Below are positions 1 through 4,224 of a stretch of DNA of 5,684 nt, one piece after another. The stretch covers positions 1-5,684 of the IMG/VR virus record IMGVR_UViG_2693429642_000007; one strand, written 5' to 3'. This DNA comes from a virus. Taxonomy: Duplodnaviria; Heunggongvirae; Uroviricota; Caudoviricetes. The number at the start of each line of letters is the position of its first letter. The first letter of the stretch is position 1. The notes under the pieces were generated by a model. The model was not told the origin of the DNA, ran no database searches, and saw nothing but the letters and a program-made list of their open reading frames with translations. The translations under genes were made by a program, and so were the position numbers.

Positions 1-2
1 AG

Positions 3-218
3 ATACAGCGCGTATACGATGAAAATCACAAGGTATACGGTGTGCGTAAAGTCTGGCGTCAGTTGTTACGGGAAGGAATCAGGGTGGCCAGATGTACAGT
101 GGCACGTCTCATGGCGGTTATGGGACTTGCCGGTGTTCTCCGGGGTAAAAAGGTCCGTACGACCATCAGCCGGAAAGCCGTTGCCGCAGGCGACCGCGTA
201 AACCGTCAGTTCGTGGCC
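3..218 (+). mobile_element. Truncated IS3-family transposase OrfB fragment (N-terminal region only; enters from left edge, similarity ends near 218)
   Basis: Frame-3 translation from position 3 reads IQRVYDENHKVYGVRKVWRQLLREGIRVARCTVARLMAVMGLAGVLRGKKVRTTISRKAVAAGDRVNRQFVA, which fits the conserved N-terminal pattern of IS3-family OrfB transposases (YG.RK.W..L.REGI.V.R..V.RLM...GL.G..RGK...TT). After codon 216-218 the translation (SFAYTMVARS...) no longer resembles transposase, where I would expect the catalytic-domain continuation. No terminal inverted repeat is visible in the window. The listed ORF 42..341 is this fragment read through into unrelated sequence. Confidence 0.55.
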
Positions 219-505
219 TCATTCGCGTACACAATGGTCGCTCGCTCCAGATTGCGTCTGTATTCTTTCTGCTGCCAGATCACGTCCTGTGCCATGAACT
301 TAACTGGCTTAGCGTCTTCTATGCGCTCAGGCGTTTCGTGAGTACCTTTAGCCTGAATCTGCGCTCTGCTTAGAGTAGGGCGGTGTAATACTTCTGAACT
401 TATTGCTTCTTCGCGGGCCAGTACGCCGTTAGCTAATGCCTTTACCTTTAAACGCTCACGACGACGAGAACGTGAATTGCCTTTGAACTGAGTTCTGCGT
501 GTCAT
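206..505 (-). CDS. N: N-like transcription antitermination protein (99 aa), with arginine-rich motif near the N-terminus
   Basis: ORF MTRRTQFKGNSRSRRRERLKVKALANGVL... has an arginine-rich motif at residues ~9-25 resembling the boxB-binding ARM of lambdoid N proteins (P22 N type, GNAKTRRHERRRK, from memory). Size is N-like (~100 aa). AGGAGG lies 5 nt upstream of the ATG (plus-strand cctcct at 511-516). It sits downstream of a boxB hairpin and the candidate pL, in the position of N in lambda. The last ~4 codons and the stop (206-218) lie inside the IS-derived sequence. Confidence 0.6.
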   Translation of the reverse strand: MTRRTQFKGNSRSRRRERLKVKALANGVLAREEAISSEVLHRPTLSRAQIQAKGTHETPERIEDAKPVKFMAQDVIWQQKEYRRNLERATIVYANEATN

Positions 506-973: not shown

Positions 974-1002
974 GGCAAAGAAAACCCGGCGCTGAGGCCG
1001 GG
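974..1002 (-). terminator. Rho-independent terminator ending the leftward cI-higB-higA-secB operon
   Basis: Inverted repeat CCCGGC-gctgag-GCCGGG at 985-1002. On the minus strand the hairpin is followed by TTTTCTTTG (plus-strand A-rich 976-984). It lies 10 nt downstream of the secB-like stop codon (1012-1014). Confidence 0.5.
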
Positions 1003-1011
1003 TGGGGAATT

Positions 1012-1416
1012 TCACTTATTACTGTTCGTTTCCATGGGATTGGCCAAGAAATCAAAATAAGGCAGAGTGAACCTACCAAGGTTTGACATGAGGATAATTT
1101 GCTCGGCATATGTTTTTATATAGGGATATGCCATATTGGGAGCAATGGACCTTACCTCATATGATTTTGCCATTTCATGAGAAAAATCATCTTCTGACCG
1201 GAAGTCAAAGTCGTATGTGATGTCCATCTCAAGCCTGCCTTCAATAGTTACGGAGGCAAAATATCTCACTCTAAATAGCTTTGAATCCTTCACATTAGTG
1301 TAAAGTTCATTATTTAGATTAACGGTTGTTTTTATGGATTTTTTTGCTGTTGAATCGCCTTCTAGCCGTGTCATAACCAAGCGTTCAACTTTTTTGCTAA
1401 TGAGTTCAATTTTCAT
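1012..1416 (-). CDS. SecB-like chaperone (134 aa), third gene of a toxin-antitoxin-chaperone (TAC) module
   Basis: The C-terminal half ...SIAPNMAYPYIKTYAEQIILMSNLGRFTLPYFDFLANP aligns by eye with E. coli SecB ...[36 protein letters not shown] (PN..[FY]PY.[RK]....G.F..L.L...FD). The N-terminal region has a beta-strand-like pattern comparable to SecB. Its start ATG (1414-1416) overlaps the stop of the upstream antitoxin gene as ATGA, indicating translational coupling. Confidence 0.65.
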   Translation of the reverse strand: MKIELISKKVERLVMTRLEGDSTAKKSIKTTVNLNNELYTNVKDSKLFRVRYFASVTIEGRLEMDITYDFDFRSEDDFSHEMAKSYEVRSIAPNMAYPYIKTYAEQIILMSNLGRFTLPYFDFLANPMETNSNK

Positions 1417-2069
1417 GGTAATAATAAGTAATTTCCGTCAGAAGTCATTTCGTCATTCAGGTTGCTAGCCGCTGTGAAACTTGATGACAAGTTACTTATC
1501 AAAGAAAAAACATTCCGTTTTTCTTTGCATTTGCCGTTACCCCTTACTGCGCTGAACAACATTTTTGAAAAGTAAGATTCTGTAGCCTTTTCAGCGAAAT
1601 AAGCAGAAGGTGATGTGACGGCTGACTCACACCGAGCAATGACGCTAGTCATGGCTGTTTCTTCTTCCTCTGCGTCAACTAGGCTCCATTCAATTGCGCT
1701 CATATCTTGAATTAAGATATCTGCAGGAATTCCAAGTCCGTCATGTAGTCTACGGATCATTGAAAGACTTAATGGACGCTTACGATTTAAGACCTCAGAT
1801 ACTTTAGATGCTGAGCCAATGTATTGTTTCATATCGGCATAAGAGAGGCCTTGTTGATCCATACGGAACTTGATTGCTTCTATGGGATCTGGCTTGTCCA
1901 TAGGGAACTCGCGTGACTCATAGTGCTCGATAAGCAAGCCTAGTAGTTCAAACTCATCAAAATCTTCAGTTCCAGGTTGTAAATCACTAGACGCAAGTTC
2001 AATGAGCCTTTCCATAGCTGCAGCATGCTCTTCACTATTTTTAATGATGCGCCAGCTAGTTCGATTCAT
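1413..2069 (-). CDS. higA: HigA-like HTH antitoxin (218 aa) with ~95-aa C-terminal extension (candidate chaperone-addiction region)
   Basis: Residues ~1-120 (...EAIKFRMDQQGLSYADMKQYIGSASKVSEVLNRKRPLSLSMIRRLHDGLGIPADILIQD) resemble E. coli HigA/YgjM-type antitoxins (HTH_XRE near the C-terminus of the conserved part). Canonical HigA ends about there, whereas this ORF continues ~95 aa (acidic linker DAEEEETAM, then a Ser/Phe-rich tail). Its start overlaps the higB stop as ATGA (2066-2069) and its stop overlaps the secB-like start as ATGA. Confidence 0.7.
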   Translation of the reverse strand: MNRTSWRIIKNSEEHAAAMERLIELASSDLQPGTEDFDEFELLGLLIEHYESREFPMDKPDPIEAIKFRMDQQGLSYADMKQYIGSASKVSEVLNRKRPLSLSMIRRLHDGLGIPADILIQDMSAIEWSLVDAEEEETAMTSVIARCESAVTSPSAYFAEKATESYFSKMLFSAVRGNGKCKEKRNVFSLISNLSSSFTAASNLNDEMTSDGNYLLLP

Positions 2070-2353
2070 TTAAGCCTCCACTTGTCGTACTCTGCATGAG
2101 TTCCAACTCTTTCAACTATGACCATTCCTGCCTGGTAAACAACTTGGACAACGAGCCGATAGTTATTGCCTTTTATATTAAAAATTACCCTGTTGTTAGG
2201 AAGGAAGTCGGCAGAATTAAATCTATTCCGTATGTCTTGAGTCGTTTTCCAGTTTTCTCTTATCACTTCATCATACCAAGAGTCTAAAGCCCCCTTGGCC
2301 TGATTGTGCTTCTGGCTAAAACTGTGAAGCTTCTCTACGTTTAAGACCTTCAT
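2066..2353 (-). CDS. higB: HigB-like toxin (RelE/ParE superfamily mRNA interferase, 95 aa)
   Basis: MKVLNVEKLHSFSQKHNQAKGALDSWYDEVIRENWKTTQDIRNRFNSADFLPNNRVIFNIKGNNYRLVVQVVYQAGMVIVERVGTHAEYDKWRLK aligns by eye along its length with E. coli HigB (YgjN): ...FNVGGNELRVVAMVFF...IREVMTHKEYD. The toxin-first gene order is typical of higBA. Confidence 0.75.
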   Translation of the reverse strand: MKVLNVEKLHSFSQKHNQAKGALDSWYDEVIRENWKTTQDIRNRFNSADFLPNNRVIFNIKGNNYRLVVQVVYQAGMVIVERVGTHAEYDKWRLK

Positions 2354-2489: not shown

Positions 2490-3194
2490 TCACGAACTTT
2501 TCAGCCACTCCCTTGCCTCGATGTCATCCAGATGGCGAGATTGCTTCAGAATACCAGCTACATACTCCACCTTTGCTACTTGATGATAAGGCAACGTTAT
2601 AGGCCTGTGATCCTGGTTAATGCTTGTAAATTGGTATTCTCCATCTCTGTCATAGCCAAGAACCTTAATCATGTTGTGTCCTTCAACGGTTCTGACAAAC
2701 ACCTCATCACCCGGGAATACTTTGGTGTTAGGCTCAATGAGTACATATTCTCCTGATTTTATTCTGGGCCACATGCTGTCTCCTTTCACACGAAGACCAA
2801 AGGCATCTGGATCATCGCTATAAATTTTGAGCCACCCATCGCGCTCTTCGGTCATCTCGATGGCACCATCAACACCAAGAATTGCCTCACCAACCACGCG
2901 CACTAACCCTTTTCTTACCTGACCGACAAAAGTTAAAGAATCTGAGAATGATGCAATTGGTGTTACATCATGTACCAAATCAAGCCACCCATTAGGTAAC
3001 CCAAGCGCGGCTTCAAATTTTCTTGCTAGTTTATCCCCTATGTTTCGAGTGCTTTTTTCACCGGAGACTTGCGTGAGTTGAGAAGGGCTAACCCCAAGCT
3101 TATCGGCAAAGCTTGCATTAGTGTTACCCGCGATTTTTTTATGCTCATCTAGCAAAAACGCCAGATTCGATTTGCGAATATCTTTGTTTTCCAT
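2490..3194 (-). CDS. cI: CI-type prophage repressor (N-terminal HTH, C-terminal S24/LexA-like peptidase domain; 234 aa)
   Basis: The N-terminus has an HTH (...FADKLGVSPSQLTQVSGEK...). The C-terminal domain has the S24 signature GDSMWP (Ser nucleophile) and a Lys ~37 residues later (MIKVLG). It is divergently arranged from the cro-like gene across an operator-rich intergenic region. A GAGGG RBS lies upstream of the ATG. Confidence 0.85.
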   Translation of the reverse strand: MENKDIRKSNLAFLLDEHKKIAGNTNASFADKLGVSPSQLTQVSGEKSTRNIGDKLARKFEAALGLPNGWLDLVHDVTPIASFSDSLTFVGQVRKGLVRVVGEAILGVDGAIEMTEERDGWLKIYSDDPDAFGLRVKGDSMWPRIKSGEYVLIEPNTKVFPGDEVFVRTVEGHNMIKVLGYDRDGEYQFTSINQDHRPITLPYHQVAKVEYVAGILKQSRHLDDIEAREWLKSS

Positions 3195-3623: not shown

Positions 3624-3641
3624 TATGCGTTTCCACGCATA
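3624..3641 (+). terminator. Hairpin between cro and cII (possible tR1-like pause or terminator structure)
   Basis: TATGCGT-ttcc-ACGCATA is a perfect 7-bp stem with a 4-nt loop, followed by CCTTTCAAC, which is only weakly U-rich. tR1 is rho-dependent in lambda, so function is uncertain. Confidence 0.2.
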
Positions 3642-3679
3642 CCTTTCAACTAACTATTCACTATTGGAAATATTAAGAA

Positions 3680-4045
3680 ATGACACAAACAAGTTACAGC
3701 AAACTATCACAGCGTGACGTTGATCGCGCAGAAACAGATTTACTCATCAACCTATCAACGCTTACCCAGCGCGGTCTGGCAAAGATGATTGGCTGTCATG
3801 AATCGAAGATAAGCAGAACGGACTGGAGACTTACCCAGCGCGGTCTGGCAAAGATGATTGGCTGTCATGAATCGAAGATAAGCAGAACGGACTGGAGATT
3901 TATTGCTTCGGTCTTGTGTGCTTTCGGAATGGCATCAGACATCAGTCCGATTAGCAGGGCTTTTAAGTATGCGCTTGCTGAAATCACAAAGAAAAAACGC
4001 CCGGCGGCAACCGAGCGTTCTGAACAAATCCAGATGGAATTCTGA
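3680..4045 (+). CDS. cII: CII-like lysogeny-establishment activator (121 aa) containing an internal 23-aa tandem duplication
   Basis: The C-terminus ...[17 protein letters not shown] matches the lambda CII C-terminus as I recall it. The N-terminal and HTH regions are divergent from lambda. Without the duplication the length would be 98 aa, against 97 for lambda CII. Position after cro and nutR is as expected. Confidence 0.8.
3761..3898 (+). repeat. Perfect 69-bp direct tandem duplication (2 copies: 3761-3829 and 3830-3898) inside cII, in frame
   Basis: Both copies read cttacccagcgcggtctggcaaagatgattggctgtcatgaatcgaagataagcagaacggactggaga with no mismatch (checked base by base). This duplicates the peptide [23 protein letters not shown]. 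Confidence 0.95.
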
Positions 4046-4067
4046 GGGAATTACTGGATCAATCCAC
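3991..4067 (-). ncRNA. oop: OOP-like antisense RNA (candidate), with its terminator hairpin at 3998-4017 inside the cII 3' end
   Basis: On the minus strand CGCUCGG-UUGCCG-CCGGGCG (7-bp stem with one G-U) is followed by UUUUUU (plus-strand A run 3992-3997). This matches the lambda oop terminator arrangement, which is antisense to the cII 3' end. A CATAAT -10 on the minus strand (plus 4075-4080, overlapping the ATG at 4078) sits where lambda pO lies, but the -35 is poor. The 5' end is inferred by analogy only. Confidence 0.35.
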
Positions 4068-4077
4068 AGGAGTAATT

Positions 4078-4224
4078 ATGACAAAACAACTCAGTCCTTA
4101 CCAGGACAAAATTCACAAACACATACTACGTGATCGCTTCCTGTCCAGCTTCAAGCAGCCTGGTCGATTCCGGGCTGGGTTGGAAAAAGTGAAGCTGATG
4201 CAGAAGGAGAAAGGTCATGAGTAA
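4078..4224 (+). CDS. Small hypothetical protein (48 aa, basic) between cII and O
   Basis: ATG at 4078 is preceded by AGGAG (4068-4072) with 5-nt spacing. It reads [48 protein letters not shown], with stop TAA at 4222-4224 overlapping the O start by 8 nt. It is absent from the supplied ORF track, presumably because it is below the length cutoff. The start context matches the lambda O start region (caggagt.attATGACAAA) as I recall it. Confidence 0.35.

What the first reader, a model, noticed from the sequence alone, without database searches (positions are those of the whole stretch)
1413..1700. About 95-aa C-terminal extension on the HigA-like antitoxin (candidate chaperone-addiction region)
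Canonical HigA antitoxins end shortly after the HTH (around ...GIPADILIQD here, by comparison with E. coli YgjM from memory). This ORF continues with an acidic linker (DAEEEETAM) and a Ser/Thr/Phe-rich tail ending ...SDGNYLLLP, encoded on the minus strand at roughly 1413-1700. In known TAC systems such an extension makes the antitoxin aggregation-prone and dependent on the dedicated SecB-like chaperone. At ~95 aa it appears longer than the extensions I recall for described TAC antitoxins, so it may contain an additional element.
Basis: partly seen in the sequence, partly recalled or inferred. Interest (0 to 1): 0.65.

Follow-up and report, generated by a model that had tools for sequence, protein, structure and literature searches.

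The report
Known chaperone-addiction tail of prophage HigA

Summary
The minus-strand ORF 1413-2069 encodes a 218-aa HigA-like antitoxin. Its homology to every other HigA stops at Q121/D122, and about 96 more residues follow, ending ...SDGNYLLLP.

It is the middle gene of higB-higA-higC, just downstream of the cI repressor of a lambdoid (Stx-phage type) prophage. The third gene has no Pfam hit, but its predicted structure has a SecB fold. [quoted passage not shown]

The tail is predicted to be disordered. It is far less conserved than the N-terminal domain but keeps aromatic anchor residues. In my sample, tails of this kind occurred only where a SecB-like gene follows.

Mets et al. (bioRxiv 10.1101/2024.02.24.581848) characterised E. 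coli NT1F31 HigBAC. Their HigA has 218 aa, a ChAD at 122-218, anchors W128/F158/F188/Y214 and a Leu-Pro end. Their HigC residues are Y39/N41/R49/D71. All of these are present at the same positions here, and the window proteins differ from that allele by 1-2 residues.

Their data explain the length as four spaced anchors, modelled one per chaperone subunit, not an extra domain. The tail behaves as a chaperone-masked degron rather than an aggregator.

Verdict: already known, low interest.

The parts
2066..2353 (-). higB: 95-aa HigB/RelE-type toxin, first gene of the operon. Its stop overlaps the higA start (ATGA).
   Evidence: PF09907 HigB_toxin, E 4.5e-30. PADLOC PD-Lambda-2_A, E 2.2e-42. Two residues differ from WP_112844290.1, the HigB used by Mets et al..
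1707..2069 (-). higA residues 1-121: the folded HigA antitoxin domain (helical, HTH).
   Evidence: Aligns to E. coli HigA 5ycl/5ifg, E 5e-5. HTH_3 scores 20.9 bits, below the 23-bit cut-off. PADLOC PD-Lambda-2_B positions 3-125, E 3.8e-50. AF2 pLDDT is 88-95 over residues 11-120.
1416..1706 (-). higA residues 122-218: the ChAD (chaperone addiction) tail, which is the finding itself. Stop codon at 1413-1415.
   Evidence: Homology to short HigAs ends at Q121/D122. pLDDT is below 50 with no secondary structure over 129-214. In close relatives the tail is 59% identical against 91% for the N-domain. Same limits as the published ChAD 122-218.
1686..1688 (-). Codon of W128, first aromatic anchor (E-W-S).
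   Evidence: W in 72 of 74 long relatives. Published W128A abolishes peptide binding to HigC.
1596..1598 (-). Codon of F158, second aromatic anchor, 30 residues after W128.
   Evidence: Aromatic in 45 of 74 relatives. Aromatic residues are enriched 25-29 residues after the conserved W (z = 5.7; 0 of 2000 shuffles reach it).
1506..1508 (-). Codon of F188, third anchor, in the hydrophobic patch NVFSLISNL.
   Evidence: Hydrophobic in 67 of 74 relatives. Published F188A lowers HigBA toxicity.
1428..1430 (-). Codon of Y214, fourth anchor, 4 residues from the C-terminus. The protein ends Leu-Pro.
   Evidence: The last aromatic lies within 5 residues of the C-terminus in 44 of 48 non-redundant tails. 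The Leu-Pro end matches the published protein.
1012..1416 (-). higC: 134-aa SecB-like chaperone. Its start overlaps the higA stop (ATGA).
   Evidence: No Pfam or NCBIfam hit. PADLOC PD-T4-9_C (= CmdC), E 2.8e-11. AF2 pLDDT 87.7. Top fold hits are 5mtw Mtb SecB-like chaperone with ChAD (TM 0.74), then E. coli and H. influenzae SecB. Y39, N41, R49 and D71 are present.
984..1003 (-). GC-rich hairpin followed by TTTTCTTT, 9 nt after the higC stop: likely operon terminator.
   Evidence: Terminator-like site; sequence read.
2490..3194 (-). cI-type repressor (HTH + Peptidase_S24) directly upstream. This places the cassette in the lambda rexAB position.
   Evidence: PF00717, E 3.8e-16. Annotated repressor CI in Stx2a_WGPS9 and BP-4795.

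Best explanation
Residues 122-218 of this prophage HigA are an intrinsically disordered chaperone-addiction (ChAD) tail of a HigB-HigA-HigC toxin-antitoxin-chaperone system. On its own the tail makes HigA unstable, so HigB is not neutralised. The SecB-like HigC tetramer binds the tail, and this protects HigA and keeps the toxin off. Binding uses four spaced aromatic anchors (W128, F158, F188, Y214), modelled as one per subunit pocket. During infection by a lambda-like siphovirus, nascent major tail protein gpV presents a similar Trp pattern with about 30-residue spacing and competes for HigC. HigA is then lost, and HigB, a predicted RNase, shuts down translation and restricts the phage.

Shown here: gene order, domain boundary, predicted disorder, anchor conservation and spacing, the SecB fold, and the co-occurrence of such tails with SecB-like genes.

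Taken from the paper on a near-identical allele: chaperone dependence, anchor mutagenesis, ITC binding, gpV triggering and independence from ClpXP/Lon/HslVU.
For: - Operon higB-higA-higC has ATGA overlaps and a terminator.
- HigB matches PF09907.
- HigA homology to solved HigA ends near residue 119-124. The family alignment boundary is at Q121/D122.
- Among 80 species-level loci of HigA relatives, 46 have 0-28 aa after the boundary, 32 have a ~280-aa M78 peptidase domain, and only 2 have a 68-69 aa tail. Both of those have a SecB-like ORF overlapping the stop (PF02556 E 6e-5; 44% identity between the two).
- None of 13 SecB-sized ORFs downstream of the other types match SecB.
- Three long relatives with divergent tails all lie cI-HigB-HigA-HigC-like in lambdoid prophages.
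- The HigC model has a SecB fold, with best hit 5mtw.
- The tail has pLDDT below 50.
- W128 is conserved in 72 of 74 relatives. Aromatic peaks lie at +25-29 (z 5.7) and +85-89 (z 4.1) from it.
- Mets et al. describe HigA of 218 aa, ChAD 122-218, W128/F158/F188/Y214, a Leu-Pro end, and HigC Y39/N41/R49/D71. All are present here.
- Their HigB accession WP_112844290.1 sits in locus L001, whose HigA, HigC and HigB differ from the window by 1, 1 and 2 residues.
Against: - No binding or co-folding could be computed here. The tail-chaperone contact rests on the paper's AlphaFold-Multimer model, mutagenesis and ITC with one peptide.
- Identity with strain NT1F31 is inferred from the HigB accession and from matching residue numbers, not from the NT1F31 genome itself.
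- The window allele has R185 where the L001 allele has Q185, inside the tail. This is untested.
- HigC gives no Pfam SecB hit. Relatives reach only sub-threshold scores of 21.6 bits against a 26-bit cut-off.
- F158 and Y214 are only moderately conserved across the wider family.
Confidence: 0.92

Rival explanations
1. The tail works as in the M. tuberculosis paradigm the reader recalled. It makes HigA aggregate, and HigC prevents aggregation, with ClpXP clearing the free antitoxin through a C-terminal degron.
For: The Mtb ChAD is described as making HigA1 aggregation-prone. The window tail has a hydrophobic patch around F188 (NVFSLISNL), which the paper's CamSol analysis flags as aggregation-prone.
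Against: The protein ends Leu-Pro, not Val-Ala or Ala-Ala. The published HigBA stays toxic in clpP, clpX, lon and clpPX lon hslVU mutants. mNeonGreen-ChAD gives a weak, even signal without foci, and HigA is undetectable without HigC. This is an indirect argument, made on a near-identical allele.
Confidence: 0.05
2. The tail is an independent functional module unrelated to the chaperone, for example a remnant or variant of the C-terminal region that other HigA-like proteins carry (the Peptidase_M78 domain of PD-Lambda-2_B type proteins), or a second sensor or DNA-binding element.
For: 32 of 80 HigA relatives carry a long C-terminal M78 domain. BLASTP alignments to two of them run on into residues 122-178 of the window protein. 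An I-[DE]-W motif follows the HTH in both architectures.
Against: Profile-profile comparison of 74 TAC tails with 32 M78-type C-terminal regions gives only a 5-column match, probability 0.6%. The PADLOC PD-Lambda-2_B match stops at residue 127. There is no Pfam hit in the tail. pLDDT is below 50 with no secondary structure, and sequence conservation is low.
Confidence: 0.02
3. The extension is an annotation or sequence artefact: a lost stop codon, or a fusion of higA with a small downstream ORF that is not normally translated.
For: None found beyond the low conservation of the tail.
Against: The same reading frame and a similar tail length hold in 74 relatives across Escherichia, Klebsiella, Salmonella, Serratia, Citrobacter and Yersinia. 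The exact protein is on at least 1000 contigs. The stop is coupled to the higC start by ATGA. Full-length His-tagged HigA is detected when HigC is present.
Confidence: 0.01

Closest known systems
E. coli NT1F31 HigBAC (Mets et al., bioRxiv 10.1101/2024.02.24.581848)
   Same: Same gene order and the same location downstream of cI in a lambdoid prophage. HigA has 218 aa with ChAD 122-218, W128/F158/F188/Y214 and a Leu-Pro end. HigC has 134 aa with Y39/N41/R49/D71. The locus carrying the paper's HigB accession differs from the window by HigA R185Q, HigC S27T and HigB Q14R/I31R.
   Different: Only these 1-2 residue allelic differences, plus the carrier: here an H-19B/BP-4795/ST2-8624-type Stx-phage immunity region.
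M. tuberculosis TAC: HigB1-HigA1-SecB(TA), Rv1955-Rv1957
   Same: HigB-type toxin, HigA-type antitoxin with a C-terminal ChAD, and a dedicated SecB-like chaperone. Aromatic ChAD residues are buried in chaperone pockets. The HigC model superposes best on 5mtw, TM 0.74.
   Different: The main Mtb segment recognised by the chaperone is 13 residues (104-116), within an extension that Mets et al. describe as less than half as long as this one. The Mtb tail carries a Val-Ala ClpXP degron, and the Mtb paradigm is aggregation plus degradation. HigC is only 16% identical to Rv1957.
CmdTAC (PADLOC PD-T4-9)
   Same: The chaperone CmdC is the closest profile match to the window's third gene (E 2.8e-11, full length). 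It is also prophage-borne and also an anti-phage TAC.
   Different: The toxin is an mRNA ADP-ribosyltransferase, not HigB. CmdA is short (ends at residue 121) with an Ala-Ala ClpXP degron.
PD-Lambda-2 (HigB-like toxin plus HigA-Peptidase_M78 fusion)
   Same: The toxin and the first ~125 residues of the antitoxin are clearly homologous (E 2.2e-42 and 3.8e-50).
   Different: The PD-Lambda-2_B profile has 402 positions and includes an ImmA/IrrE-type metallopeptidase domain. The window protein matches only positions 3-125 and has a disordered tail and a chaperone gene instead.
E. coli K-12 HigBA (YgjN/YgjM; PDB 5ycl, 5ifg)
   Same: The HTH antitoxin domain aligns (residues 53-119 to 68-133 of 138).
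   Different: It is a two-gene system. HigA ends about 5 residues after the aligned region, with no tail and no chaperone.

Membership tests
Toxin-antitoxin-chaperone (TAC) system | Three-gene operon: toxin, antitoxin, dedicated SecB-like chaperone | tested here: met
   higB 2066-2353, higA 1413-2069 and higC 1012-1416, all on the minus strand with 4-nt overlaps and a terminator after higC.
Toxin-antitoxin-chaperone (TAC) system | Third gene product has the SecB fold | tested here: met
   AF2 model pLDDT 87.7, pTM 0.80. Foldseek top 19 PDB hits are all SecB or SecB-like, best 5mtw E 2.7e-7, TM 0.74. By sequence alone it is not detected. Relatives P0146 and P0147 hit PF02556 below threshold.
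Toxin-antitoxin-chaperone (TAC) system | Antitoxin carries a C-terminal extension absent from chaperone-independent homologues | tested here: met
   Boundary at Q121/D122. Short relatives end 0-28 aa later. Disordered-type tails occurred only with a SecB-like gene downstream in the sample.
ChAD (chaperone addiction) element | Unstructured on its own | tested here: met
   Prediction only: pLDDT below 50 and no DSSP elements over 129-214 with an 83-sequence alignment.
ChAD (chaperone addiction) element | Conserved aromatic residues that serve as chaperone anchors | tested here: met
   W128 in 72 of 74 relatives. Aromatic enrichment at +25-29 and +85-89 from it (z 5.7 and 4.1). A near-C-terminal aromatic in 44 of 48 tails.
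ChAD (chaperone addiction) element | Removing the extension makes the antitoxin chaperone-independent; the extension binds the chaperone | not testable with these tools
   Reported for the near-identical NT1F31 allele: deletion of 122-218 gives a classical TA pair, and peptide 121-148 binds HigC with KD 1.3 uM, which W128A abolishes. No multimer prediction is available here.
HigA antitoxin family | HigA-type HTH domain, encoded after a HigB toxin gene | tested here: met
   phmmer to PDB HigA 5ycl, E 5.4e-5. HTH_3 is sub-threshold at 20.9 against 23 bits. HigB PF09907 lies immediately upstream.
PD-Lambda-2 | Antitoxin-like protein B of about 400 aa with a C-terminal Peptidase_M78 (ImmA/IrrE) domain | tested here: not met
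   The window HigA matches only profile positions 3-125 of 402. No M78 hit. hhalign of tails against M78-type C-terminal regions gives probability 0.6%.
CmdTAC (PD-T4-9) | ADP-ribosyltransferase toxin CmdT | tested here: not met
   The toxin here is HigB (PF09907). Only the chaperone matches a PD-T4-9 profile.

The most novel reading that the evidence does not exclude
The roughly 96-aa tail may do more than hold four HigC anchors. The stretch between the anchors (about 160-187, including the K/R-rich GNGKCKEKRN that carries the R185/Q185 polymorphism) could hold the degron for the still unidentified protease that removes free HigA. It could also tune which phage proteins can displace the tail, so that alleles in Stx phages have a different trigger range from the NT1F31 allele. 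My evidence does not exclude this: the protease is unknown (not ClpXP, Lon or HslVU), and no function has been assigned to the inter-anchor segments.
Probability: 0.1. Interest if true: 0.45.

Novelty: already known. Interest (0 to 1): 0.12.

Why it matters
As a discovery it adds little. The element, its length, its anchors, its chaperone and its phage trigger have been published and tested on an allele that differs by one residue.

It does have annotation value. RefSeq and GenBank label these genes only as 'transcriptional regulator' or 'helix-turn-helix domain-containing protein' and 'hypothetical protein'. Yet the cassette sits in the immunity region of many Shiga-toxin phages: 88 of 5426 complete E. 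coli genomes and 30 phage records carry at least 80% of it. Recognising it as HigBAC means these STEC prophages probably give their hosts abortive-infection-type defence against lambda-like siphoviruses.

Tried and rejected
- Sequence-only detection of SecB in the third gene failed. Pfam and NCBIfam gave no hit. phmmer and profile hmmsearch against PDB sequences gave only chance matches. The fold search settled it.
- I tested whether the tail derives from the linker or N-terminal part of the Peptidase_M78 region found in 32 of 80 relatives. BLASTP alignments run on into residues 122-178, but profile-profile hhalign finds only a 5-column I-[DE]-W match, probability 0.6%. Rejected.
- I looked for an origin of the 30-residue spacing in DNA-level tandem duplication. 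TRF finds no repeat of period ~90 in 1413-1706, only two low-scoring 2-copy repeats at 1383-1422 and 1426-1455. No support.
- The HigC-family HMM does not detect the SecB-like ORFs of the Proteus and Xenorhabdus loci (E 0.005-0.05). They belong to a different SecB-like lineage, shown by Pfam and by pairwise comparison instead.
I covered those with the look-up of encoding contigs.
- The Rfam scan of the window found nothing. The promoter-like count is no higher than in shuffled sequence.
- Co-folding the tail with a HigC tetramer is not possible with the single-chain predictor.

Full report
**1. What is in the window**

Three minus-strand ORFs run head to tail just downstream of a cI-type repressor (2490-3194, Peptidase_S24 plus HTH).
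- A 95-aa ORF at 2066-2353 is a clear HigB toxin (PF09907, E 4.5e-30).
- A 218-aa ORF at 1413-2069 is the subject of the finding.
- A 134-aa ORF at 1012-1416 follows.

The genes overlap by ATGA at both junctions. A GC-rich hairpin with a T-run follows the last stop.

The rest of the window is a lambdoid early region. It holds cro, cII and O on the plus strand and a truncated N gene on the minus strand. Close DNA matches (99.2-99.4%) are the immunity regions of Stx-converting phages (BP-4795, ST2-8624, Stx2a_WGPS9 and many Stx1a phages) and of E. coli prophages. There the three genes are annotated only as HigB toxin or hypothetical protein, 'transcriptional regulator' or 'helix-turn-helix domain-containing protein', and 'hypothetical protein'.

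**2. Checking the observation**

The boundary with the canonical HigA domain is supported three ways.
- Solved E. coli HigA (138 aa) aligns to residues 53-119 and ends about 5 residues later.
- Among the 120 best database relatives, lengths are bimodal: 119-164 aa and 181-245 aa. Most of the short ones end at query positions 124-134.
- In multiple alignments, all conservation stops at Q121/D122.

**3. What the tail is**

An AlphaFold2 model built on 83 aligned sequences gives pLDDT of 88-95 for residues 11-120. Residues 129-214 score below 50 and have no secondary structure. No Pfam family matches the tail.

In the 20 closest relatives the tail is 59% identical to the window, against 91% for the N-terminal domain. 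Across all 74 long relatives the figures are 26% against 75%.

Some positions are nevertheless kept.
- W128 is Trp in 72 of 74 relatives.
- Position 188 is hydrophobic in 67 of 74.
- Position 158 is aromatic in 45 of 74.

I also ran an alignment-free test on 48 non-redundant tails. Aromatic residues pile up 25-29 residues after the conserved Trp (z = 5.7) and again at 85-89 (z = 4.1). None of 2000 shuffles reached the observed peak. The last aromatic lies within 5 residues of the C-terminus in 44 of 48 tails.

Tails in this family are 68-123 aa, median about 97. The window's length is therefore typical for its family.

**4. The third gene**

It has no Pfam or NCBIfam hit, and sequence or profile searches of the PDB find nothing. 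It does match the PADLOC profile PD-T4-9_C, the CmdC chaperone, over its full length (E 2.8e-11).

Its AF2 model (pLDDT 87.7) has a SecB fold. The top 19 PDB matches are all SecB or SecB-like. [quoted passage not shown] Two family members reach sub-threshold PF02556 scores.

**5. Does the tail go with the chaperone?**

I examined 80 species-level loci encoding relatives of the HigA N-domain.
- 46 have 0-28 residues after the boundary.
- 32 have a ~280-residue Peptidase_M78 (ImmA/IrrE) domain, the PD-Lambda-2_B architecture.
- 2 (Proteus and Xenorhabdus) have a 68-69 residue tail of neither kind.

Both of those two have a 156-157 aa ORF overlapping the higA stop. One hits PF02556 (E 6e-5), and the other is 44% identical to it. 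None of the 13 SecB-sized ORFs downstream of the short or M78 types matches SecB.

Three long relatives with very different tails (from Klebsiella, Citrobacter and Rosenbergiella) all sit in the order cI-HigB-HigA-HigC-like in lambdoid prophages. Their HigC-HMM E-values are 1e-42 to 1e-53.

So long C-terminal regions are common in HigA relatives, but the common one is an unrelated folded peptidase domain. Profile-profile comparison with the TAC tails gives only a 5-column match at 0.6% probability.

**6. Comparison with the literature**

Mets et al. (bioRxiv 10.1101/2024.02.24.581848) describe HigBAC of E. coli NT1F31. It lies on a lambdoid prophage downstream of cI, in the rexAB position.

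[quoted passage not shown] The protein ends Leu-Pro. Every one of these residues is at the same position in the window proteins.

Their HigB accession, WP_112844290.1, is the HigB of locus L001. The three L001 proteins differ from the window's by HigA R185Q, HigC S27T and HigB Q14R/I31R. I did not see the NT1F31 genome itself, so identity of the HigA and HigC alleles is inferred.

**7. Mechanism**

The following results come from that paper, on the near-identical allele.
- HigBA is toxic without HigC. Deleting 122-218 gives a classical, self-sufficient TA pair.
- The triple W128A/F158A/Y214A mutant is no longer rescued by HigC. The quadruple mutant is stable and non-toxic without HigC.
- Peptide 121-148 binds HigC with KD 1.3 uM, and W128A abolishes binding. 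HigC R49A fails to rescue.
- HigA is undetectable without HigC. Toxicity persists in clpP, clpX, lon and clpPX lon hslVU backgrounds. A ChAD-tagged fluorescent protein is weak but evenly distributed, so the tail acts as a chaperone-masked degron for an unknown protease rather than as an aggregator.
- The trigger is the lambda major tail protein gpV. Escape mutants carry S54P. Nascent gpV presents W36 and W67, 30 residues apart, to the same pockets, and peptide 48-78 (KD 250 nM) competes with the ChAD peptide.

The Mtb paradigm differs. There, the main segment recognised by the chaperone is 13 residues long (104-116), and the model is aggregation plus ClpXP degradation.

**8. Verdict**

The 'aggregation-prone' detail does not fit the published behaviour of this system. 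The feature is already known, so interest is low. The residual value is in annotating this cassette in Stx phages.

**9. Side check**

Two carrier phages, Stx2a_WGPS9 and BP-4795, encode no close homologue of lambda gpV (no tblastn hit below E = 3). The BP-4795 major tail subunit shares only a 25-residue local match outside the trigger region. This is consistent with the carrier not triggering its own HigBAC, but I did not pursue it further.

Noticed in passing
window 3761-3902 (within ORF 3680-4045, + strand): A 69-bp unit is repeated 2.1 times at 98% match, in frame, inside the cII-like gene. It duplicates 23 residues ([23 protein letters not shown]) and gives a 121-aa product instead of the 98 aa annotated in related phages (297-bp genes). 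The best E. coli genome matches to 3640-4100 align in two pieces spanning 392-395 bp, so they lack the extra copy.
   Followed up: partly
window 1-217 joined to 218-505: Window 1-217 is internal IS629/IS1203 transposase (orfB) sequence. It abuts a 3'-truncated N antiterminator gene (206-505, minus strand; 99 aa against 127 aa in Stx2a_WGPS9). The junction lies inside the transposase, not at an IS end. Only 2 of 5426 complete genomes cover both halves, and they have about 720 extra bp between them. This suggests a deletion or an assembly collapse.
   Followed up: partly
L003-L082 (80 loci of HigA relatives): The HigA N-domain occurs in three architectures: alone (46 loci), fused to a ~280-aa Peptidase_M78/ImmA-IrrE domain as in PD-Lambda-2_B (32 loci), or with a disordered tail plus a SecB-like gene (2 loci, plus the window type). 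An I-[DE]-W motif follows the HTH in both long forms, but profile comparison finds no further similarity.
   Followed up: yes
L016 2717-4024 and L049 2699-4015: Proteus vulgaris and Xenorhabdus anantnagensis carry HigB-HigA(190-195 aa)-SecB-like(156-157 aa) operons. Their chaperone belongs to a different SecB-like lineage from HigC: the HigC HMM gives only E 0.005-0.05, while PF02556 gives E 6e-5 for the Xenorhabdus protein. The same HigA scaffold has therefore been paired with more than one SecB lineage.
   Followed up: partly
L089 (Stx2a_WGPS9) and L091 (BP-4795): Phages that carry the cassette encode no close homologue of lambda gpV, the published HigBAC trigger. This is consistent with avoidance of self-triggering.
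   Followed up: partly
window 984-1003 (- strand): The hairpin CCCGGC-CTCAGC-GCCGGG followed by TTTTCTTT lies 9 nt after the higC stop. It is the likely terminator of the higBAC operon, ahead of the nutL/N region.
   Followed up: no
window 1515-1517 (HigA codon 185), 1336-1338 (HigC codon 27), 2312-2314 and 2261-2263 (HigB codons 14 and 31): These are allelic differences from the locus that carries the published HigB accession: HigA R185 (Q there), HigC S27 (T there; A in Stx2a_WGPS9), and HigB Q14 and I31 (R and R there). The HigA change lies inside the ChAD tail, between anchors F158 and F188.
   Followed up: no
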